Source of the DNA: a virus
Lineage: Duplodnaviria; Heunggongvirae; Uroviricota; Caudoviricetes
Virus record (IMG/VR): IMGVR_UViG_2703718801_000022
Direction: 5' to 3' (one strand)
DNA length: 42,217 nt
Part shown: positions 8,455 through 36,954 of the stretch, in pieces
Position numbering within the stretch: position 1 is the stretch's first letter
How the letters are laid out: every line of letters starts with the position of its first letter
Program-made: the position numbers and the translations under genes
The notes under the pieces: generated by a model
Seen by the model: the letters and a program-made list of their open reading frames with translations, nothing else
Told to the model about the DNA's origin: nothing
Databases searched by the model: none

Positions 8455-8974
8455 TAAAAATCAAATTGTCAGATATAAGGGTCGAGTATTGCATACGCAA
8501 AATTTCTCGGCCCTTTGTGCATCTGATCTTGAGCTGAAGAAAGTATCTGATGCCTTTGCCCAGTATTGGAAAACGGGATACCATCCATCTCTTGGTAAAG
8601 ATGCTGCATTTGCTCGTCCGACAGAAATGCTTAAACTAAATGTCAGGCATACTCATGTCGATAACCAAGACTATATTCCAGAAGATAGTGATAAAAAACA
8701 CACTGGTAAAAAATCATCTTGGGATGCATGGAAAAATATAGCGTCTGTACAAGTAAAATGCATACCAACAAGTGATTGCTTTTTAGTTTATTCGGTAAAT
8801 CACAATCGTGATGCGCTGGTTATGTTTTTTGTTGACGCAGATGCTCACAACATAACTGAGCAAGAAGAGTTTAAAGAGGAAGCAATCACTATCAGTTATC
8901 AATTCTTTGAGAAAACAAAAACAGAACCAATGCCTTTAGAAGAAGATCTTTTTTCTGATAAATGGAAGGAATAG
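8429..8974 (+). CDS. YafO-like toxin domain protein
   Basis: AGGAAA RBS; product resembles YafO ribosome-dependent mRNA interferase as recalled (LGKDAAF...LKLNVRHTHV...CFLVYSV...DADAH); AT-rich. Confidence 0.45.
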   Translation: MSSSASQNDKNQIVRYKGRVLHTQNFSALCASDLELKKVSDAFAQYWKTGYHPSLGKDAAFARPTEMLKLNVRHTHVDNQDYIPEDSDKKHTGKKSSWDAWKNIASVQVKCIPTSDCFLVYSVNHNRDALVMFFVDADAHNITEQEEFKEEAITISYQFFEKTKTEPMPLEEDLFSDKWKE

Positions 8975-9277: not shown

Positions 9278-9534
9278 GCACATCCCTGTGCCGCCGCCCG
9301 TCAGAAGAACCCTGCCTTGTCGTTGATGTATTCCGCGTGGGTCTGGATATCACGCAGGCATTTACTCACACCGACGATGTAGCAGAACATGGTGGTCAGC
9401 TCCGCCGCCGCGCCCGATACGTCGTGCCCGTCTTCCTGTAACTGGTTCAGCAGATTCATCAGCAGTGAGTTCTCCGTCAGGCCGAGAACACCAGACGGAG
9501 AATGAATCAGACTGCGGTAGCCGGGCTTCAGTGG
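9278..9534. repeat. Inverted repeat, right copy (3' end of second antirepressor gene plus 23 bp)
   Basis: Reverse complement matches 7894-8150. Confidence 0.85.
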
Positions 9535-10239
9535 ATAACCATAACATTTTGTCTGTGTTTTAATTGCCTCACGAAGCGCATCTAACATCTTGACTGCCAC
9601 TTCATCATTCTCTGATGCAACTCCAGCAGGGAGATACTCCCCTTCAAGCGGAACCCGGGCAACAAGAGACAACGCTTCGGCGAATTGATCTTCACCAATT
9701 TCTTTGTACGAACAGCCAAAGTGAGATTTTAGTGACGACCACATGGTAATGATCGCCCTCGCCTGTTTTTCTTTTGGCAGAGACTGACCGCGACTCATGA
9801 CGAGTTGTTTAATGGCTTCCTGCTGTTCAGTCGTGATTTTACCCGGCAACACCTTTTTAGCTTTGCGCGGGTTAACCACATGGCCTTTAGTCCAGTACTC
9901 GTAGAGCACATCATCACACTCTTCCTGATACTGGATTACCTTATCGCGGATTTCAGGGCGGACTTTGTTTGGACTGATGCTGTTCAACCAAGCTGCCAAT
10001 TTTCGTAAAGCCATACAAATCATGGCTTGCACCCCTCCGGCAGAAGGTATGGTGATTTCCACCATACCCTTCGAGAAGCGTTGAGAAATCTTCTTATGTT
10101 GAGATTTCCAGTCTAGACCCATTCCCTCAACGATAGGTTTCATTGGGGTGTACGGTTCGCCGTTGTGATTGACAACATAAAGTTCTACGCCGTGGAATGG
10201 CACGTTGATAGTAGATACCGCTGTTGCTATACTCGTCAT
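9301..10239 (-). CDS. Antirepressor, AntA/P22-Ant-like N-terminal domain plus shared Ant C-terminal domain
   Basis: 312 aa; N-terminus FHGVELYVVNHNGEPYTPMKPIVEGMGLDW; downstream of Arc-like gene as in P22 immI; C-terminus shared with 7417-8127. Confidence 0.75.
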   Translation of the reverse strand: MTSIATAVSTINVPFHGVELYVVNHNGEPYTPMKPIVEGMGLDWKSQHKKISQRFSKGMVEITIPSAGGVQAMICMALRKLAAWLNSISPNKVRPEIRDKVIQYQEECDDVLYEYWTKGHVVNPRKAKKVLPGKITTEQQEAIKQLVMSRGQSLPKEKQARAIITMWSSLKSHFGCSYKEIGEDQFAEALSLVARVPLEGEYLPAGVASENDEVAVKMLDALREAIKTQTKCYGYPLKPGYRSLIHSPSGVLGLTENSLLMNLLNQLQEDGHDVSGAAAELTTMFCYIVGVSKCLRDIQTHAEYINDKAGFF

Positions 10240-10312
10240 GTCGTTAATTCCTATACGTAGTTTTACGATACTGAAGCCCTTACGGTCTGGCCACCGTTGG
10301 GCTTCGCTGTTT
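10240..10312 (+). ncRNA. Candidate sar-like antisense RNA covering the antirepressor RBS
   Basis: -35 TTGATA (10205-10210), 17-bp spacer, -10 TATACT (10228-10233); nested hairpin GAAGCCC..ACGGT..ACCGT..GGGCTTC (10273-10305) + TGTTTTAT; antisense to ant RBS. Confidence 0.4.
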
Positions 10313-10479
10313 TATGCCACGCTATTCTTCTCACCAGTGAGTCCATACACTTTCCTCAACTGATAGATAATCTCTGTATTGAACTTTCGGCATTCTTTTT
10401 CACCATTTCTTTCAATAGCTAACTTCACATCGTCCGGAAAACGAATTCGTCGTTGACACATCTCTTTTGCTTTTTGCAT
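10312..10479 (-). CDS. Arc-like ribbon-helix-helix repressor
   Basis: 55 aa from ATG with AAGGAGAG RBS; RIRFPDDVKLAIERNGEKECRKFNTEIIYQL resembles P22 Arc; immediately upstream of ant. Confidence 0.7.
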   Translation of the reverse strand: MQKAKEMCQRRIRFPDDVKLAIERNGEKECRKFNTEIIYQLRKVYGLTGEKNSVA

Positions 10480-10599
10480 CTCATCTCTCCTTTGCCCCAC
10501 GGTGGGGCAAAATAATTGTCACACCGTGCGTCATTGATGTCAAGCACACGGTGAGGCATACTTCAATCATTGCAAGTAACTCAATATTTGGTGAAGAAC
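10480..10599. promoter_or_regulatory. Divergent Arc-like/Mnt-like control region with palindromic operators
   Basis: Perfect 19-bp palindrome TTGCCCCACGGTGGGGCAA (10492-10510); inverted CACCGTG (10522-10528) / CACGGTG (10547-10553). Confidence 0.5.
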
Positions 10600-11031
10600 A
10601 TGAGCAGAGAAGATCCACAACTAAGGATCAGACTTCCCATTGAAGTAAAAGAAAAAATAGAAATTTCTGCAAAAGCCAATAAGCGATCAATGAACGCTGA
10701 AATAGTACAACGTCTTGACACCAGCTTCCTGAAAGATATTCATGAAGATGACGTAATTTCTGCTTATGAAGCAAAAATCATTGCAAACAACGCACGGCAT
10801 GAAATATCAAATATCATTTTCAAAAGAACCTTTAATGAAATTAATAAAAAAATAACACTTGGACATACAAGTTTTTATATAAACCTTAATGACCTTGAAC
10901 TGGAATCACTTGCAGATAATGATTACCAGGTCATCTTTGAAAAAACATTTAATAAGCTCAATGAACTAGGTTACATCATCTGTGAAAATTCATGGGATGC
11001 AGATGGTTTTGGAATTGAAATACCTGAATAG
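10600..11031 (+). CDS. Mnt-like ribbon-helix-helix regulator with extended C-terminal domain
   Basis: N-terminus MSREDPQLRIRLPIEVKEKIEISAKANKRSMNAEIVQRL resembles P22 Mnt; 143 aa vs 83 aa for Mnt; AT-rich. Confidence 0.6.
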   Translation: MSREDPQLRIRLPIEVKEKIEISAKANKRSMNAEIVQRLDTSFLKDIHEDDVISAYEAKIIANNARHEISNIIFKRTFNEINKKITLGHTSFYINLNDLELESLADNDYQVIFEKTFNKLNELGYIICENSWDADGFGIEIPE

Positions 11032-18471: not shown

Positions 18472-20936
18472 CAGAATCCCCCAACAGTAAGGCGAGGAAT
18501 AACGGCAAGAACAGACAGCGGCAACGGGTCAAGCTGACGGATTTTTACACGCCCGTTTTTGCCCCAGTTACTGTCCAGTTTCACTTCTACTTTTCCGGTA
18601 GCATCATCAACAGGATCATCGTAGAACTCGAATTCACGCTGTGGATATTCGTACCATTTACCGCCGGGCGTAGTCGCCCAGATGCCGCGACTGGCATTCA
18701 CAACCAGAGTAACGGACGGGATCACCTGTTTTTTGTCCAGCAGCGTTTCCTGTCCGTTAATGTTGATATCCAGTGTTTCGAATTCAGCAGTTATTGGCAG
18801 GCCGATGTGCACAACAGCCCCCGGTGATTCCAGCGTGACGGCACCTCCGGAAACCACTTTCTGTGGTTCCACGTTCGCATCAGAGAGAATGTTTACGGTC
18901 TGGCCTTCAAGATGAGACAGGCCTCCAAATGTCCGGCGCGCCATCTGCCAGTTCGTGGTAGCCACATTCCTGAGGGATGGCGGGACGTTCCTGTTAGCAC
19001 GAACCACTACAGCGGTATTGCTGGTTACAGAAATGATGTCGCAACGTAATTCTTTTGACACTTCATCGCCAGGATCAGTTCCGGTATAAGGGAACTGTAG
19101 TTGAGCACCGACATCACTACTGGTGAAGTACGCACCACCAGAAACACTGATTGTATATTCCGCGCGGTAATCCCATTCGCCAGAACCACCAGTGATGATC
19201 ATCGTTCTGTCAGACGTATTTCTTCCATCATAGCTAAGGCCAGAATCAACAAAGAAAGCATCTTCATCGCTGGTAAATAAACGGCTGGACAGTCGCTCGA
19301 TGTATCTCACTGTTTGCCCGTTAACGGTTCGGTTAACGACGAAATACACCGCATCTTCATTTCCTTCGCTGATACTGCATGTGCTTTCATATTTTCCGGT
19401 ACTGGATTGTGGTGCCCATGCAAAAACCTGCTGATCACGCAAATAGGTCATCACCAGTAATTTACCGTCATCACGAATGCAGAAGGCGCTGGAGTAAGGG
19501 ACAATAGAGAAGCACCAGTCAACAATGCTGTGCTTCTGAAAAAGATGATTGGCAAGGATGGTCAGGTCGTTCCCCTGATAGCCGTCAACATCGAATGAGT
19601 AGGCCAGATCACGGACAACACTGCCTTTCTCCTGGACGAACAGAGCAATATTCGCCACGGCAATTGGTGGGACATTGCTCGAGCCATTTGATCCCTGAGA
19701 GCTGAATGCAAATGATGATGGGGTTAACACTTTGTTCTGGTCGCCGGTGATGACGTACTCACCTCCGGAAGTCAGTGCCACCAGCGAACCGACATCAATC
19801 AGGTGGCGGATCTCATTAACCTGACGCCCGGCATAGGTGTAGATAATTCTGTCGTCATCCTGCGTAGGATTGCTTTTGCCAAAATCCTTATAATCCCCGG
19901 TACGGCTGGCCCAGATAGTCTGAGGGAACGCAGTCGATGCGGCGAAGTAAAGACGTTGTTGATAATAAACAACAGTGCCAGGATAACCATTAACACTGTT
20001 CCAGGCATATTTAGCCCATTTATAGCTGGCATTATCCTCGCCAACTACCTGCGAAGGGATATAGGAAATCACCTCGGCAGTTGCAGTAGTTCCATTTGCA
20101 GCAGTGATACGGGCAATGCCAAAACCACTGTGCAGATATTCCCACTCAATGCCAGTATCATCATCACCGGATCCGCCCCAGCCATCCCATGATGTGCCTT
20201 CTGTATGCGAAGGGCGCAAAGTACCTGTTTTGCCTGCTGTAACGGCGCGATAGTAGTTACTGTCTGCACGGCGAATATCGCCAACCGACGTACTCTTACT
20301 GGTTTCCCATACCGGCACAGAATCCACTGCAGGCTGTTCCAGATAGAACAATTTGCCTACCTGCTCCGCGCCAAAAATAGAGGCGCTTGCCGTTAACGTA
20401 ATTGTCCCGGTGCTGGCGCTGGCATAAACCGTCACTGACTCGTCAATATTGATATCTTCAAATGGCCCGTTCTTCGTTACCACATCAACCAGTTGCCAGT
20501 TGTCATGCGCATAGCGGCGCAACTCTTTCGGCGGGTATGCCGGGTGAACCAGCGTAAGCACGTCGGCGCTTTGCGTAAATTTAATTCGGAACAGATCGGC
20601 TTCAGTATATGGCGTGGCAATTTCATAAATAACATTGCTGCTGTTCAGCACCAACGCACCATCTTTGATAACGCGCATGTACTGGTGTCCGAACTCCAGA
20701 GCATAGGTCTGAACCGTCGAGAACTGAAACGGGATCAGGCGGCATTTCCGATTTGGGTATTTTGCGGCACCGACAAAACGCGTACCTGGTCGATTCTCAA
20801 CGCCGCCATACTGCCGCACGATGAAGTTATCGCACTTGCGCAATGCCACCTGGTACTTCGCCATGTCGATACGTCCGTACAACGACGGTCCAATCTCACC
20901 ACCGGCAAAGCTGGGCTGGATCCAACTGATAGCCAT
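18471..20936 (-). CDS. Tail tubular protein B / nozzle (T7 gp12-like)
   Basis: 821 aa; N-terminus resembles T7 gp12 start (GG.S..P pattern); follows gp11-like gene. Confidence 0.55.
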   Translation of the reverse strand: MAISWIQPSFAGGEIGPSLYGRIDMAKYQVALRKCDNFIVRQYGGVENRPGTRFVGAAKYPNRKCRLIPFQFSTVQTYALEFGHQYMRVIKDGALVLNSSNVIYEIATPYTEADLFRIKFTQSADVLTLVHPAYPPKELRRYAHDNWQLVDVVTKNGPFEDINIDESVTVYASASTGTITLTASASIFGAEQVGKLFYLEQPAVDSVPVWETSKSTSVGDIRRADSNYYRAVTAGKTGTLRPSHTEGTSWDGWGGSGDDDTGIEWEYLHSGFGIARITAANGTTATAEVISYIPSQVVGEDNASYKWAKYAWNSVNGYPGTVVYYQQRLYFAASTAFPQTIWASRTGDYKDFGKSNPTQDDDRIIYTYAGRQVNEIRHLIDVGSLVALTSGGEYVITGDQNKVLTPSSFAFSSQGSNGSSNVPPIAVANIALFVQEKGSVVRDLAYSFDVDGYQGNDLTILANHLFQKHSIVDWCFSIVPYSSAFCIRDDGKLLVMTYLRDQQVFAWAPQSSTGKYESTCSISEGNEDAVYFVVNRTVNGQTVRYIERLSSRLFTSDEDAFFVDSGLSYDGRNTSDRTMIITGGSGEWDYRAEYTISVSGGAYFTSSDVGAQLQFPYTGTDPGDEVSKELRCDIISVTSNTAVVVRANRNVPPSLRNVATTNWQMARRTFGGLSHLEGQTVNILSDANVEPQKVVSGGAVTLESPGAVVHIGLPITAEFETLDININGQETLLDKKQVIPSVTLVVNASRGIWATTPGGKWYEYPQREFEFYDDPVDDATGKVEVKLDSNWGKNGRVKIRQLDPLPLSVLAVIPRLTVGGF

Positions 20937-26728: not shown

Positions 26729-26743
26729 TTACCTTTAAGGTAA
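26729..26743. promoter_or_regulatory. Operator-like palindrome TTACC-TTTAA-GGTAA
   Basis: Perfect member of dispersed family; upstream of portal operon and next to TTGACA at 26707-26712. Confidence 0.45.
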
Positions 26744-27065: not shown

Positions 27066-27142
27066 GTGGCATTAACTCAGTTGGACAGAGCAACCGCCTT
27101 CTAAGCGGTTTGTCGCAGGTTCGAATCCTGCATGCCACGCCA
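27066..27142 (+). tRNA. tRNA-Arg (anticodon UCU)
   Basis: Cloverleaf by eye: acceptor GTGGCAT/ATGCCAC, anticodon stem ACCGC/GCGGT with loop CTTCTAA, T-arm GCAGG-TTCGAAT-CCTGC, 3' GCCA. Confidence 0.85.
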
Positions 27143-29278: not shown

Positions 29279-29871
29279 TGATTACCATCCTGACGTTCTT
29301 TGAGTCGCTTCCTGGCTGCCGCTATGCGATCAGCAATTGTCACATTCACATTAACATCCAGGCGTTCTTTGAATGCGTTGACGTCGACGTGCTTACCAAT
29401 CAGTTCTAGGTTCTTCACCTTGTCAGGCCATTTAATTTTTTTGAGGATTGTCTCTATCGAGTCCTCGTTCATGTTCATAATGGTCGATGACAGATCAAAG
29501 CCGCTAAGCGTAGTGCGCCATATTTTCGGCCACTCGCGGATTGGCTTAAGACTCCCATCGTCGTTGAGGATATCAATCACGTCCATCTGGTCGATCTCCA
29601 CCAGGCGCATGAGAACGTAATCAGCACTGACGCGCATTCGTTTGTTGCGCTCTTCCATCAACTCGGCAATCCGTTTTTGAATGCGTTCATCGCGCATCAT
29701 GACGCTGGCTTTAACTGCCGCTGTATTTGGGGAGAATCCTGCGTTAATCGCTGCCTGAGTCTGGTTTTCAGGAGTTTTGATGTATGACTGGCAATAAGCC
29801 TCCTGCATTGCTGTTAGTGGCTTAAATTGCGTTGATTTGCGTTTATAGGTTTTAGGTTCAGCAGGCATCAT
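29275..29871 (-). CDS. terS: Terminase small subunit
   Basis: Coupled to terL; start set at internal ATG (MMPAEP) because the upstream ORF extension covers operator and terminator sequence. Confidence 0.65.
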   Translation of the reverse strand: MMPAEPKTYKRKSTQFKPLTAMQEAYCQSYIKTPENQTQAAINAGFSPNTAAVKASVMMRDERIQKRIAELMEERNKRMRVSADYVLMRLVEIDQMDVIDILNDDGSLKPIREWPKIWRTTLSGFDLSSTIMNMNEDSIETILKKIKWPDKVKNLELIGKHVDVNAFKERLDVNVNVTIADRIAAARKRLKERQDGNQ

Positions 29872-29903
29872 AACCACCGTGGTAATAGTTACCGTTGTGG
29901 TAA
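29871..29903. promoter_or_regulatory. Tandem operator-like palindromes at the entry of the late operon
   Basis: TTACC-GTTGT-GGTAA (29889-29903) and TAACC-ACCGT-GGTAA (29871-29885) abutting the terS start codon. Confidence 0.45.
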
Positions 29904-29912
29904 TAGTACCAT

Positions 29913-29941
29913 GCAAAATAAAGCCGCCATAGTTGGCGGCA
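29913..29941 (-). terminator. Terminator-like hairpin upstream of terS
   Basis: On the minus strand GCCGCCAACTATGGCGGC followed by TTTATTTTG. Confidence 0.45.
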
Positions 29942-29945
29942 GTAT

Positions 29946-30179
29946 TCAAAGTCCATCAAATTCATCGTAAAAACTCTCGTCAAGATACCCTTCCCATTTA
30001 CCGCGAATGAAAATTACATCCTCGCCGCAAGGGTGCTGACTGTCGATAACTATATCCCTCCTGGCGCAACCATACTTATGCATGAGAAATTTAACCTCTT
30101 TCGGAAAATTTGCTGAGTTATCTCTCATATCTTCAAGGTCGTAGCGTATTTTTGGCATAACACCTTCGTGACATGTCAC
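29946..30179 (-). CDS. Hypothetical protein
   Basis: 77 aa ORF; start overlaps palindrome GTGACATGTCAC. Confidence 0.4.
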   Translation of the reverse strand: MTCHEGVMPKIRYDLEDMRDNSANFPKEVKFLMHKYGCARRDIVIDSQHPCGEDVIFIRGKWEGYLDESFYDEFDGL

Positions 30180-33600: not shown

Positions 33601-33678
33601 TTACCCCTGAGGTAATTAAAAACCACATAAGACACGAAATCAATAGAGTTTAGAATATTTTGTTACCCAACAGGTAAT
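33601..33678. promoter_or_regulatory. Two operator-like palindromes between replication and accessory early genes
   Basis: TTACC-CCTGA-GGTAA (33601-33615) and TTACC-CAACA-GGTAA (33664-33678). Confidence 0.45.
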
Positions 33679-35528: not shown

Positions 35529-35607
35529 GGTAAGCTCTGTTATTAGTATTGGGATTACGGTTATTTTGTGCTGACACAAAAAAAAGATCAACCAGATTTG
35601 GTTTTTT

Positions 35608-35622
35608 ATTACCTTTAAGGTA
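35608..35622. promoter_or_regulatory. Operator-like palindrome TTACC-TTTAA-GGTAC
   Basis: One-mismatch member of the dispersed family downstream of cro-like gene. Confidence 0.4.
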
Positions 35623-35632
35623 CGAATAGATA

Positions 35633-35660
35633 TGAAAAGACCGCCGGATGGCGGTCTACA
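35633..35660 (-). terminator. Terminator-like hairpin downstream of cro-like gene
   Basis: On the minus strand GACCGCCATCCGGCGGTC followed by TTTTCAT. Confidence 0.45.
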
Positions 35661-35678
35661 GAGGGTTGTGGCTGGATA

Positions 35679-35909
35679 TCATGAGTAGAAGAAGTATGCC
35701 AGTTCTGCTTTTGAGCGCAGCCATTGTCTTGTTTTACAGGCTTTAAAAAGCCCATTCATCAATACCTTACCTGGCATTTTGCGCTTACCTGTTAAGTGAG
35801 TCTGGATATAGTGACTCGTCGTTCCGGCTTCCTGTGCGAAGGCTTCACGCTCATCCGGAGTAAGTGCAAGCCAGTGCTTTTTGAAATCGAAATGTCCGTT
35901 ATCGCTCAT
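35679..35909 (-). CDS. Cro-like HTH regulator
   Basis: 76 aa; HTH-like segment REAFAQEAGTTSHYIQTHLTG; divergent from repressor across operator cluster. Confidence 0.55.
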   Translation of the reverse strand: MSDNGHFDFKKHWLALTPDEREAFAQEAGTTSHYIQTHLTGKRKMPGKVLMNGLFKACKTRQWLRSKAELAYFFYS

Positions 35910-35945
35910 AGCTATTGCCTGATATTTATTTCAGATAATAAATAT

Positions 35946-36008
35946 TCACCCATAAGGTAACAAAAATCAAGGATAGTTACCTATGGGGTGCATTTACCTG
36001 TTGGGTAA
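35946..36008. promoter_or_regulatory. Tripartite operator cluster between repressor and cro-like genes
   Basis: TCACC-CATAA-GGTAA (35946-35960), TTACC-TATGG-GGTGC (35977-35991), TTACC-TGTTG-GGTAA (35994-36008). Confidence 0.6.
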
Positions 36009-36063
36009 TATTGCTTTAAATTGAATCATCTACTGATTCATATATGAGGCGATTTTCCAGAAA

Positions 36064-36648
36064 ATGAAAAGTATCCAGGACGTCCGCAGGCAAAATCTCA
36101 ACGACTTGATCGACCGTGAATTCAATGGTGTTCAGACGCGGATGGCAGAAAAACTTGGAACTCAGGCAAATCTGGTAAACCGCTGGGCTCTTGGCAAGAA
36201 GGTTATCGGCGACCAGGTTGCGCGAAAAATTGAAGCTGCCGCCAATAAACCCCGTAACTGGCTTGATATCGATCGCTCGCTTTCTCAGGAAGGTTTTCAG
36301 CCTGTCGGCCCAAGCGACATTGGTCAGCTGGCGGCTCACAACCTGGAACGCTGGATGAGCGAAAGCCGCGACCTTTCAACACAGGGAAAACTTCACCGCG
36401 CATCCGGCGTCGCCCAGGTGACAATCAGCCGCCTGTTAAACAATGAGGTCAGCGTTTCCATTTCCACCCTGGAGAATGTTGCATCCGCATTCGGGCGTCA
36501 CGGATATGAACTACTGATTCACCCGCACGACCCTGCGACTATCAACTATGACCGCTCGCGCTACGCATTGTTACCCGAAACCGAGAAAGCAAAGATCGAA
36601 AGTTACATTGAATTTGTCATCAACCAGAACGAAAAAAACAAACAATAA
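36064..36648 (+). CDS. Prophage repressor with two tandem HTH domains and no peptidase S24 domain
   Basis: 194 aa; HTH-like segments MAEKLGTQANLVNRWALGKK and ASGVAQVTISRLLNNEVSVSISTLENVASAFG; no Ala-Gly/Ser..Lys autocleavage module. Confidence 0.7.
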   Translation: MKSIQDVRRQNLNDLIDREFNGVQTRMAEKLGTQANLVNRWALGKKVIGDQVARKIEAAANKPRNWLDIDRSLSQEGFQPVGPSDIGQLAAHNLERWMSESRDLSTQGKLHRASGVAQVTISRLLNNEVSVSISTLENVASAFGRHGYELLIHPHDPATINYDRSRYALLPETEKAKIESYIEFVINQNEKNKQ

Positions 36649-36670
36649 AATCATATTTTTCAGTAAGTAA

Positions 36671-36695
36671 GCCGCCTTCTGGCGGCTTTTTTATT
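36671..36695 (+). terminator. Rho-independent terminator of repressor gene
   Basis: GCCGCC-TTCT-GGCGGC followed by TTTTTTATT. Confidence 0.8.
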
Positions 36696-36705
36696 GCCTG
36701 TTCGA

Positions 36706-36782
36706 TTACCTAATGGGTAATTTTTTCAACTCATATCTATTGACATCAAACCAGATACGCATAATTATTACCTCAACGGTAA
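36706..36782. promoter_or_regulatory. Leftward-operon-like promoter with two flanking operators
   Basis: TTACC-TAATG-GGTAA (36706-36720), -35 TTGACA (36740-36745), AT-rich -10, TTACC-TCAAC-GGTAA (36768-36782). Confidence 0.5.
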
Positions 36783-36801
36783 CAGACAGAGGTAACAAGT
36801 T

Positions 36802-36954
36802 ATGCAGTGGAAAATCATCAACGGTTGGTACTGCGTTACTGCATGCGGATTCATGAGCTGGAAGTTCCGCACCTTACAGGAAGGCATTAAGTGGGCTTTC
36901 GTCAGCAAAGAAGCTCGCGATGTGGCCAACGATAACGAGATATGGGAGGGCTGA
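36802..36954 (+). CDS. Small Trp-rich protein, first gene of early operon
   Basis: 50-aa ORF below the track cutoff; GAGGT RBS; stop overlaps next start. Confidence 0.3.
   Translation: MQWKIINGWYCVTACGFMSWKFRTLQEGIKWAFVSKEARDVANDNEIWEG

What the first reader, a model, noticed from the sequence alone, without database searches (positions are those of the whole stretch)
35910..36782. Immunity repressor built from two HTH domains with no autocleavage domain
The 194-aa repressor has two separate XRE-type HTH segments and ends without a peptidase S24 module, flanked by three operators on one side and two around a TTGACA promoter on the other. A tandem-HTH single-chain repressor reading a palindromic operator is uncommon among lambdoid phages and fits the multiple antirepressor genes elsewhere in the element.
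Basis: partly seen in the sequence, partly recalled or inferred. Interest (0 to 1): 0.5.

Follow-up and report, generated by a model that had tools for sequence, protein, structure and literature searches.

The report
Known phiV10/SPC32H-type phage repressor
This is the ordinary immunity repressor of a phiV10-like (epsilon15-group) prophage, and a relative has solved crystal structures showing that only the first helix-turn-helix binds DNA, while the second is a dimerisation domain and a small SOS-controlled antirepressor switches the protein off.

Summary
ORF 36064-36648 encodes a 194-aa protein with two XRE-type HTH segments and no S24 peptidase. Three TTACC-N5-GGTAA operators lie on its left, and two on its right bracket a TTGACA promoter.

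The protein is 100% identical to the repressor of phages phiV10 and vB_EcoP_ZX5. It is 42% identical over its full length to Salmonella phage SPC32H Rep (PDB 5D50/5D4Z). As citing papers describe it, that protein has an N-terminal DNA-binding domain, a middle dimerisation domain (the "second HTH") and a C-terminal tetramerisation and Ant-binding tail, and it binds DNA as a tetramer. It is not a single chain reading both half-sites.

The two half-sites are identical while the two HTH segments are unrelated in sequence, which also argues against the single-chain idea.

The antirepressor link is correct. An 85-aa Ant (6844-7101), 86% identical to SPC32H Ant, sits behind a perfect LexA box. Two larger proteins carry the same Ant domain.

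The module occurs in about 10% of complete E. coli genomes, so it is already known and of low interest.

Side observations: Rep operators recur at syntenic intergenic sites across the prophage, and three differently controlled Ant-domain genes appear to converge on Rep.

The parts
36064..36648 (+). rep: 194-aa immunity repressor. It is 100% identical to phiV10 p40 and vB_EcoP_ZX5 ORF21.
36064..36279 (+). Rep residues 1-72: N-terminal HTH DNA-binding domain. Net charge +5; 53% identical to the SPC32H Rep DNA-binding domain.
36325..36528 (+). Rep residues 88-155: the second HTH_3-like segment. It corresponds to the middle dimerisation domain (MDD) of SPC32H Rep. Net charge 0; 32% identical.
36529..36645 (+). 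Rep residues 156-194: C-terminal tail, corresponding to the tetramerisation/Ant-binding domain (CAD) of SPC32H Rep. Y181 and F184 align with the SPC32H tetramer-interface residues F187 and F190.
35946..35960 (.). Operator TCACCCATAAGGTAA (1 mismatch). It overlaps the -35/spacer of the candidate rightward promoter for the cro-like gene.
35977..35991 (.). Operator TTACCTATGGGGTGC (2 mismatches).
35994..36008 (.). Operator TTACCTGTTGGGTAA (exact), the one nearest rep.
35935..35963 (-). Candidate PR-like promoter: TTGTTA, 17-nt spacer, TATTAT. It faces the cro-like gene.
35679..35909 (-). Cro-like 76-aa gene transcribed divergently from rep. It matches phrog_35 (transcriptional repressor, E=5.6e-13).
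36669..36688 (+). Intrinsic terminator hairpin just after rep.
36706..36720 (.). Operator TTACCTAATGGGTAA (exact), 20 bp upstream of the -35 hexamer.
36740..36768 (+). PL-like promoter: TTGACA, 17-nt spacer, AATTAT. It drives the exonuclease/RecT operon.
36768..36782 (.). Operator TTACCTCAACGGTAA (exact). It abuts the -10 hexamer and lies 62 bp from its partner operator.
6844..7101 (+). ant: 85-aa antirepressor, 86% identical to SPC32H Ant (PDB 5D50 chain E).
6805..6824 (.). LexA box TACTGTATATTTGTACAGTT, 20 bp upstream of ant. The same arrangement is present in SPC32H.
6753..6767 (.). Rep operator-like site (1 mismatch) upstream of the LexA box. It is syntenic with SPC32H position 20013.
7417..8127 (+). 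Protein with an N-terminal BRO-N domain and a C-terminal Ant-like domain (5D50_E, E=2e-13).
9301..10239 (-). Protein with a P22_AR_N domain and a C-terminal Ant-like domain (5D50_E, E=6e-14). It lies in a P22 immI-like Arc/Mnt setting.
33601..33677 (.). Second pair of exact operators, also 62 bp apart, bracketing CTATTGAT on the minus strand between the replication gene P and the DUF1064 gene. Syntenic with SPC32H positions 35972/36034.

Best explanation
The ORF is the Rep immunity repressor of a phiV10-like Uetakevirus (epsilon15-group podovirus) prophage integrated next to guaA.

Mechanism, inferred by homology with SPC32H Rep:
- The N-terminal HTH domain (residues about 1-72) reads the symmetric operator ATTACC-N5-GGTAAT as a pair of identical heads.
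- The second HTH-like segment (about 88-155) is a dimerisation domain, not a DNA reader.
- The C-terminal tail (about 156-194) joins two dimers into a tetramer and is the docking site for the antirepressor.
- A tetramer carries two pairs of heads, so it can hold two operators at once. This fits the conserved operator pairs at PR/PRM and the 62-bp pair bracketing PL.

Induction, also inferred:
- Rep has no cleavage module, so RecA-stimulated autocleavage is not the expected route.
- DNA damage removes LexA from the box in front of ant.
- The 85-aa Ant is then made, binds the Rep C-terminal regions, breaks the tetramer and releases the DNA.

Shown here:
- Homology of Rep and of Ant to the crystallised pair.
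- The domain layout.
- Absence of an S24 domain and of a cleavage dipeptide.
- The operators, their symmetry and their conserved layout.
- The LexA box.

Shown in the literature for the identical protein: over-expression blocks lytic growth of vB_EcoP_ZX5.

Inferred only: the oligomeric state, which domain touches DNA, and that Ant binds this particular Rep.
For: - PDB sequence search: full-length match to 5D50_A 'Repressor' (E=4e-42, residues 1-190) and to 5D4Z_A (C-terminal fragment, E=4e-20).
- The Foldseek search with the AlphaFold model (pLDDT 78.6, two helical domains, disordered linker at 74-84) puts 5D50 and 5D4Z chains at ranks 1-12.
- The SPC32H Rep architecture (DNA-binding domain, MDD, CAD), its tetrameric DNA binding with heads paired in trans, and disassembly by tetrameric Ant are described in PMC9638917 and PMC9986798.
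- The SPC32H tetramer-interface residues F187/F190 align with Y181/F184 here, and F184 is invariant in 43 homologues.
- Ant at 6844-7101 matches 5D50_E with E=1.4e-46 and 86% identity. A perfect LexA box lies at 6805-6824, and the same layout is in SPC32H.
- No S24 domain and no AG/CG dipeptide.
- Nine exact operators against 0.01 expected. Left and right half-sites share one consensus. The 30/31 + 17 and 62/63 bp spacings are conserved in four phages whose Reps are 42-78% identical to this one.
- The helix ANLVNRW in the N-terminal domain is conserved in all four phages along with the TTACC half-site. The equivalent helix of the second HTH varies.
- The identical protein in vB_EcoP_ZX5 abolishes free phage and cuts holin and endolysin transcripts by more than 99.9% when over-expressed (PMC9782041).
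Against: - Rep is only 42% identical to SPC32H Rep, and the MDD only 32%, while Ant is 86% identical. Whether this Ant really binds this Rep is assumed, not shown.
- The primary papers (Kim and Ryu 2013; Kim et al. 2016) were not available to read. The mechanism therefore rests on the PDB entries, on citing papers and on my recollection of the abstract.
- The second HTH passes the Pfam HTH_3 threshold and keeps an invariant Q118 and R123 in its would-be recognition helix within the close subfamily. A residual DNA contact is not excluded.
- The vB_EcoP_ZX5 authors attributed DNA binding to the C-terminal HTH, from a domain hit only.
- No promoter for rep itself was found by the consensus scan.
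Confidence: 0.88

Rival explanations
1. One reading: one Rep chain acts as a pseudo-dimer, with its two HTH domains each reading one half of the palindromic operator, so the protein binds as a monomer.
For: - Two HTH-type segments are joined by a flexible linker.
- No classical dimerisation/S24 domain is present.
Against: - The half-sites are identical, but the two HTH segments show no similarity to each other.
- The homologue's second HTH-like domain is described as a dimerisation domain, and the protein binds DNA as a tetramer.
- The tetramer-interface aromatic residues are conserved here.
- The N-terminal domain carries the positive charge: +5 against 0 for the second domain.
Confidence: 0.03
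2. The second HTH dimerises, as in SPC32H Rep, but also keeps a secondary DNA contact (non-specific, or to a different site) that adds to operator affinity or to bridging between distant operators.
For: - The segment passes the Pfam HTH_3 gathering score.
- Q118 and R123 are invariant in 43 close homologues.
- Many operator sites are scattered over the prophage.
Against: - Q118 is a proline in SPC32H Rep.
- The domain has no net positive charge.
- No second conserved motif was seen next to the operators.
- The cited literature assigns the domain to dimerisation only.
Confidence: 0.07
3. It is not the immunity repressor but a generic XRE regulator or a HigA/VapI-type antitoxin, as one phage record annotates it.
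For: - Phage BP9 annotates the identical gene as 'plasmid maintenance system antidote protein VapI'.
- There is a weak NCBIfam HigA hit at E=0.0012, far below the cutoff.
Against: - The gene sits divergent from a cro-like gene, between the replication and recombination operons, with operators on both flanks.
- There is no adjacent toxin gene.
- Its homologue in SPC32H is annotated rep and was crystallised with its antirepressor.
- The identical protein represses lytic growth.
Confidence: 0.02

Closest known systems
Salmonella phage SPC32H Rep/Ant antirepression system (PDB 5D4Z, 5D50; Kim and Ryu 2013, Kim et al. 2016)
   Same: - Rep shows full-length homology with the same three-part layout.
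- Operators have the same TTACC-N5-GGTAA half-sites with the same 3 + 2 layout and 62-bp pair.
- The gene order is the same.
- Ant is 86% identical and sits behind a LexA box.
- Neither Rep has an S24 domain.
- Extra operator sites are syntenic across the genome.
   Different: - Rep is only 42% identical (MDD 32%).
- The operator centres are less A/T-rich here (61% against 78%), so immunity specificity may differ.
- This prophage has two additional Ant-domain fusion proteins that the SPC32H annotation does not list.
phiV10 p40 and vB_EcoP_ZX5 ORF21 (E. coli Uetakevirus repressors)
   Same: - The protein is 100% identical and the DNA of the region is 98-99% identical.
- The phiV10 record already notes two HTH motifs.
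- ZX5 ORF21 was tested by over-expression.
   Different: Nothing in the repressor itself. The antirepressor and moron region between the tailspike and structural genes differs between these phages.
Coliphage 186 CI/Tum and Salmonella Gifsy repressor/antirepressor pairs (LexA-controlled antirepressors)
   Same: The logic is the same: a non-cleavable repressor is inactivated by a small antirepressor whose gene is repressed by LexA (PMC7380047).
   Different: These proteins did not appear in the PDB or Pfam searches run here, and they were not compared directly with this Rep or Ant.
P22 C2 repressor with the immI Ant/Arc/Mnt region, and the P1/P7 immI c4-icd-ant region
   Same: - This prophage carries a P22_AR_N antirepressor next to Arc-family genes.
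- It also carries a C4 antisense RNA upstream of a BRO-N antirepressor.
   Different: - P22 C2 has an S24 autocleavage domain; this Rep does not.
- Here both large antirepressors end in an SPC32H Ant-type domain rather than in P22_AR_C.
pLS20 Rco/Rap and the p53-type tetramerisation domain ('TetDloop'); SinR/SinI
   Same: An N-terminal XRE HTH is combined with a C-terminal tetramerisation element, with relief by a protein partner (PMC9986798). SinR appears among weak fold matches.
   Different: Rco lacks the middle HTH-like dimerisation domain. There is no useful sequence similarity in the tail.

Membership tests
SPC32H-type Rep (Uetakevirus repressor inactivated by Ant) | Full-length sequence homology covering the DNA-binding domain, MDD and CAD | tested here: met
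   phmmer against 5D50_A gives E=4e-42 over residues 1-190. Identity is 42% overall and 53/32/46% by domain.
SPC32H-type Rep (Uetakevirus repressor inactivated by Ant) | The same fold | tested here: met
   The AlphaFold model's Foldseek ranks 1-12 are 5D50 and 5D4Z chains. TM-score is 0.68-0.75 on the 5D4Z C-terminal fragment. The relative orientation of the domains is not comparable.
SPC32H-type Rep (Uetakevirus repressor inactivated by Ant) | Hydrophobic tetramer interface (Phe187/Phe190 in SPC32H Rep) | tested here: met
   These residues align with Y181 and F184, and F184 is invariant in 43 homologues. This shows conservation only, not assembly.
SPC32H-type Rep (Uetakevirus repressor inactivated by Ant) | A cognate Ant gene in the same genome, under a LexA box | tested here: met
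   Ant at 6844-7101 is 86% identical to 5D50_E. The LexA box is at 6805-6824.
SPC32H-type Rep (Uetakevirus repressor inactivated by Ant) | Symmetric TTACC-N5-GGTAA operators in the conserved layout around divergent early promoters | tested here: met
SPC32H-type Rep (Uetakevirus repressor inactivated by Ant) | Dimer-tetramer equilibrium, DNA binding as a tetramer with heads paired in trans, and release by Ant | not testable with these tools
   Known only for SPC32H Rep through citing papers. No multimer prediction or experiment was available.
SPC32H-type Rep (Uetakevirus repressor inactivated by Ant) | Represses the lytic genes of its phage | not testable with these tools
   Literature: the identical protein over-expressed in a vB_EcoP_ZX5 host abolishes free phage (PMC9782041).
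LexA/lambda CI-type autocleaving repressors | A Peptidase S24 domain with a Ser/Lys dyad and an Ala-Gly or Cys-Gly cleavage site | tested here: not met
   No S24 hit at E<=1 and no AG or CG dipeptide in the protein. All 194 residues are accounted for by the SPC32H Rep domains.
Single-chain tandem-HTH (pseudo-dimeric) DNA binder | Two DNA-reading HTH domains in one chain, each matching one half-site | tested here: not met
   The half-sites are identical, the two HTH segments are unrelated in sequence, and the homologue's second domain is a dimerisation domain. This evidence is indirect; binding was not measured.

The most novel reading that the evidence does not exclude
The repressor itself is known, but its wiring in this prophage may not have been described as a whole.

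Operators:
- Rep operators lie at about nine further intergenic positions. These are in front of the replication-distal early genes, the small terminase gene, the head genes, ant/tailspike and the lysis cassette.
- Several of these positions are syntenic with SPC32H.
- Two promoter-bracketing pairs keep exactly 62 bp between operators.
- This suggests that one tetrameric Rep directly silences nearly every transcription unit through short loops.

Antirepressors:
- Three proteins carrying the same Ant domain are under three classical but different controls: a LexA box, an isrK/C4 antisense RNA as in P1 immI, and Arc/Mnt as in P22 immI.
- All three may converge on this single Rep, giving three independent induction inputs.
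Probability: 0.3. Interest if true: 0.4.

Novelty: already known. Interest (0 to 1): 0.13.

Why it matters
As it stands, the finding adds nothing new. The same protein is in sequenced and partly tested phages, and a homologue has crystal structures with its antirepressor.

Its practical value is in annotation. In about 10% of complete E. coli genomes this gene is labelled only 'helix-turn-helix domain-containing protein', and the 85-aa Ant is labelled 'hypothetical protein'. Both could instead be named Rep and Ant of an SOS-inducible, non-cleavable immunity system.

The side observations would be of moderate interest to people who study prophage induction and cross-talk, if confirmed experimentally. 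These are the genome-wide operators with a fixed 62-bp pair spacing, and the three differently controlled Ant-domain proteins.

Tried and rejected
- Primary papers: I tried to read Kim et al. 2016 (DOI and PMC4983836), Kim and Ryu 2013 (PMC3807360) and the epsilon15 genome paper (PMC2698709). None is held. The mechanism is therefore cited through PMC9638917, PMC9986798, a bioRxiv preprint and the PDB entry titles.
- Cryptic autocleavage: I looked for an S24 hit (Pfam at E<=1) and for AG/CG dipeptides. There are none.
- Internal duplication: I tested whether the two HTH segments are duplicates of each other. BLASTP finds no alignment.
- Curated family name: NCBIfam gives only far sub-threshold RstR, HigA and TreR hits.
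- Promoter for rep: the consensus scan finds none between 35994 and 36064. Hand-picked candidates were weak and were left out.
- Inverted-repeat search on the SPC32H immunity region returned only a trivial A/T palindrome. A direct pattern count was used instead.
- The antitoxin reading (VapI/HigA) was rejected on gene context and function.
- Coordinates transferred from the 100%-matching E. coli record were off by 12-18 bp outside the matched stretch. All coordinates given were therefore re-derived from the window itself.

Full report
**What is there**

The window is a prophage integrated beside guaA in E. coli. One att core (ATTGAGTGGGAATGATT) lies at 1164-1180. Host genes yfgH and yfgI lie to its left, and the integrase gene sits at the right end.

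The region 35600-36900 is 98.8% identical to phage phiV10 and close to other Uetakevirus (epsilon15-group) phages. It occurs in 562 of 5426 complete E. coli genomes.

ORF 36064-36648 (+) encodes 194 aa. It lies divergent from a 76-aa cro-like gene at 35679-35909 (phrog_35), which leads into the replication genes on the minus strand. Downstream of the ORF come an intrinsic terminator (36669-36688), a near-consensus promoter (TTGACA, 17 nt, AATTAT, 36740-36768) and a PD-(D/E)XK nuclease/RecT operon. This layout places the ORF as an immunity repressor.

**Checking the observation**

Pfam HTH_3 hits the protein with two stretches. Scanned separately, residues 88-155 pass the gathering score, while residues 1-72 give only sub-threshold HTH hits. 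There is no Peptidase_S24 hit at E<=1 and no Ala-Gly or Cys-Gly dipeptide.

The operators exist as described:
- Left of rep: 35946 (1 mismatch), 35977 (2 mismatches) and 35994 (exact).
- Right of rep: 36706 and 36768 (both exact), 62 bp apart, bracketing the TTGACA promoter.

Nine exact TTACC-N5-GGTAA sites occur in the window, against 0.01 expected.

The same three-plus-two layout recurs in SPC32H, Klebsiella phage BUCT711 and Enterobacter phage Tyrion. The spacings are 30/31 and 17 bp on one side and 62/63 bp on the other. The repressors of these phages are 42-78% identical to this one.

**What the protein is**

A sequence search of the PDB gives a full-length match to 5D50 chain A, 'Repressor' (E=4e-42). 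It also matches 5D4Z, a 107-residue C-terminal fragment (E=4e-20). These are Rep of Salmonella phage SPC32H, alone and in complex with its antirepressor Ant. The SPC32H genome annotates the gene as rep.

An AlphaFold model built on 43 homologues has mean pLDDT 78.6. It shows two helical domains, a disordered linker at 74-84 and a lower-confidence tail. Foldseek ranks 1-12 for this model are 5D50 and 5D4Z chains.

The protein is 100% identical to phiV10 p40 and to vB_EcoP_ZX5 ORF21. The phiV10 GenBank note already reads 'two helix-turn-helix motifs'. Over-expression of ZX5 ORF21 eliminated free phage and cut holin and endolysin transcripts by more than 99.9% (PMC9782041).

**How it most likely works**

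I could not obtain the primary structural paper. Two papers that discuss it agree on the following points:
- SPC32H Rep has an N-terminal DNA-binding domain, a middle dimerisation domain (MDD) and a C-terminal domain (CAD) that both tetramerises the protein and binds Ant.
- Rep shifts between dimer and tetramer, and the dimer binds DNA weakly.
- The paired DNA-binding heads come from different dimers.
- Tetrameric Ant binds two Rep dimers and breaks the tetramer (PMC9638917; PMC9986798).

Identity to SPC32H Rep is 53%, 32% and 46% in the three parts. The SPC32H tetramer-interface residues F187 and F190 align with Y181 and F184, and F184 is invariant in the family alignment.

Three observations from the sequences point the same way:
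- The left and right operator half-sites share one consensus, (A)TTACC, whereas the two HTH segments have no detectable similarity. A two-fold symmetric site calls for two copies of one head, not two different heads.
- The helix ANLVNRW of the N-terminal domain is conserved in all four phages together with the TTACC half-site, while the matching helix of the second HTH varies.
- The N-terminal domain carries net charge +5 and the second domain 0.

Which domain touches DNA, and the oligomeric state, remain inferences for this protein.

**Induction**

An 85-aa ORF at 6844-7101 matches the Ant chain of 5D50 (E=1.4e-46) and is 86% identical to it. Twenty base pairs upstream lies a perfect LexA box, TACTGTATATTTGTACAGTT (6805-6824). 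A Rep operator-like site lies at 6753. SPC32H has the same operator, LexA box and ant order.

The expected path is therefore: SOS response, LexA cleavage, Ant synthesis, Rep tetramer disassembly. This is the logic reviewed for Salmonella prophages in PMC7380047. It explains why Rep needs no autocleavage module.

The single-chain idea, one chain whose two HTHs read the palindrome, is contradicted by the homologue's structure-based description and by the symmetry argument above.

The design is not rare. It is the standard repressor of a common E. coli prophage group and is already annotated and crystallised. The phage is also not a lambdoid in the strict sense, although its early region is laid out like one.

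**Things found outside the given coordinates**

Rep operators across the prophage. Sites with at most one mismatch number 15 in the window; for comparison, shuffles of the similarly sized SPC32H genome gave a mean of 0.48. All but one are intergenic.

Several are syntenic with SPC32H sites:
- A second exact pair, 62 bp apart, at 33601/33663, bracketing CTATTGAT in front of the DUF1064 gene (SPC32H 35972/36034).
- Two adjacent sites at 29871/29889, just before the small terminase start (SPC32H 12).
- One at 26729 before the head genes (SPC32H 3175).
- One at 6753 between tailspike and ant (SPC32H 20013).
- One at 3195 beside the lysis cassette (SPC32H 24782).

Others lie at 7133, 8200 and 35609. 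This suggests direct repression of most transcription units. The fixed 62-bp pair spacing would suit a repressor with two pairs of heads. I could not check whether this has been published.

Further Ant-domain proteins. Two larger proteins end in an Ant-like domain that is about 40% identical to Ant, and the two copies are almost identical to each other:
- One has a BRO-N N-terminus (7417-8127). It is preceded by Rfam-threshold isrK (7184-7260) and C4 antisense RNA (7285-7368) hits. The C4 stretch CCACTTAG (7326-7333) is complementary to CTAAGTGG (7398-7405), which overlaps the gene's ribosome-binding site. This resembles the P1 immI circuit.
- The other has a P22_AR_N N-terminus (9301-10239, minus strand). 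It sits behind an Arc-like ORF and opposite an Arc-family gene, as in P22 immI.

The complete three-gene arrangement is rare: 10 of 5426 E. coli genomes, plus phage TL-2011b.

**Verdict**

The feature is real but already known. Interest is low. The side observations on the Rep regulon and the three Ant inputs are the only points that might repay further work.

Noticed in passing
window 3195, 6753, 7133, 8200, 26729, 29871, 29889, 33601, 33663, 35609 (15-bp sites): Rep operator sites (TTACC-N5-GGTAA, 0-1 mismatch) lie far outside the immunity region, and the listed ones are all intergenic. Several are syntenic with sites in SPC32H. The pair 33601/33663 repeats the exact 62-bp spacing of the PL pair and brackets a CTATTGAT promoter-like element.
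   Followed up: partly
window 6805-6824 and 6844-7101: A perfect LexA box lies in front of an 85-aa gene that PGAP calls hypothetical. The gene is 86% identical to the crystallised SPC32H Ant. Ant is far more conserved than Rep (86% against 42%).
   Followed up: yes
window 7184-7260, 7285-7368, 7417-8127: isrK and C4 antisense RNA (both above the Rfam gathering score) sit immediately upstream of a BRO-N protein with a C-terminal Ant-like domain. The C4 stretch CCACTTAG (7326-7333) is complementary to CTAAGTGG (7398-7405) at the gene's ribosome-binding site, as in P1/P7 immI.
   Followed up: partly
window 9301-10239 (-), 10312-10500 (-), 10600-11031 (+): A P22 immI-like module: an Arc-like small ORF followed by a P22_AR_N antirepressor, with a divergent Arc-family (Mnt-like) gene. 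The antirepressor ends in an SPC32H Ant-type domain that is nearly identical to the one on the BRO-N protein, which suggests a recent domain swap.
   Followed up: partly
window 8275-8454 and 8402-8974 (+): A YafO-family toxin gene with a small overlapping upstream ORF, preceded by an exact Rep operator at 8200. It may be a toxin-antitoxin moron under Rep control.
   Followed up: no
window 29866-29973 (-): The RefSeq start of the small terminase gene (equivalent to window 29973) runs across a terminator hairpin and two Rep operators. An in-frame ATG at 29871 fits the SPC32H gene start better, so the annotated start is probably too far upstream.
   Followed up: partly
window 27066-27142 (+): A tRNA-Arg (anticodon TCT) lies between the terminase and head gene blocks, as in SPC32H.
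   Followed up: no
window 1164-1180: One copy of the att core ATTGAGTGGGAATGATT reported for phiV10, epsilon15 and ZX5. The second copy lies beyond the right end of the window, so the window holds almost exactly one prophage plus yfgH and yfgI.
   Followed up: yes
window 35638-35657 (-) and 35609-35623: An intrinsic terminator lies directly after the cro-like gene, followed by an operator-like site before the next early gene. SPC32H has a similar site. This implies the rightward early operon is interrupted and may restart or need read-through.
   Followed up: no
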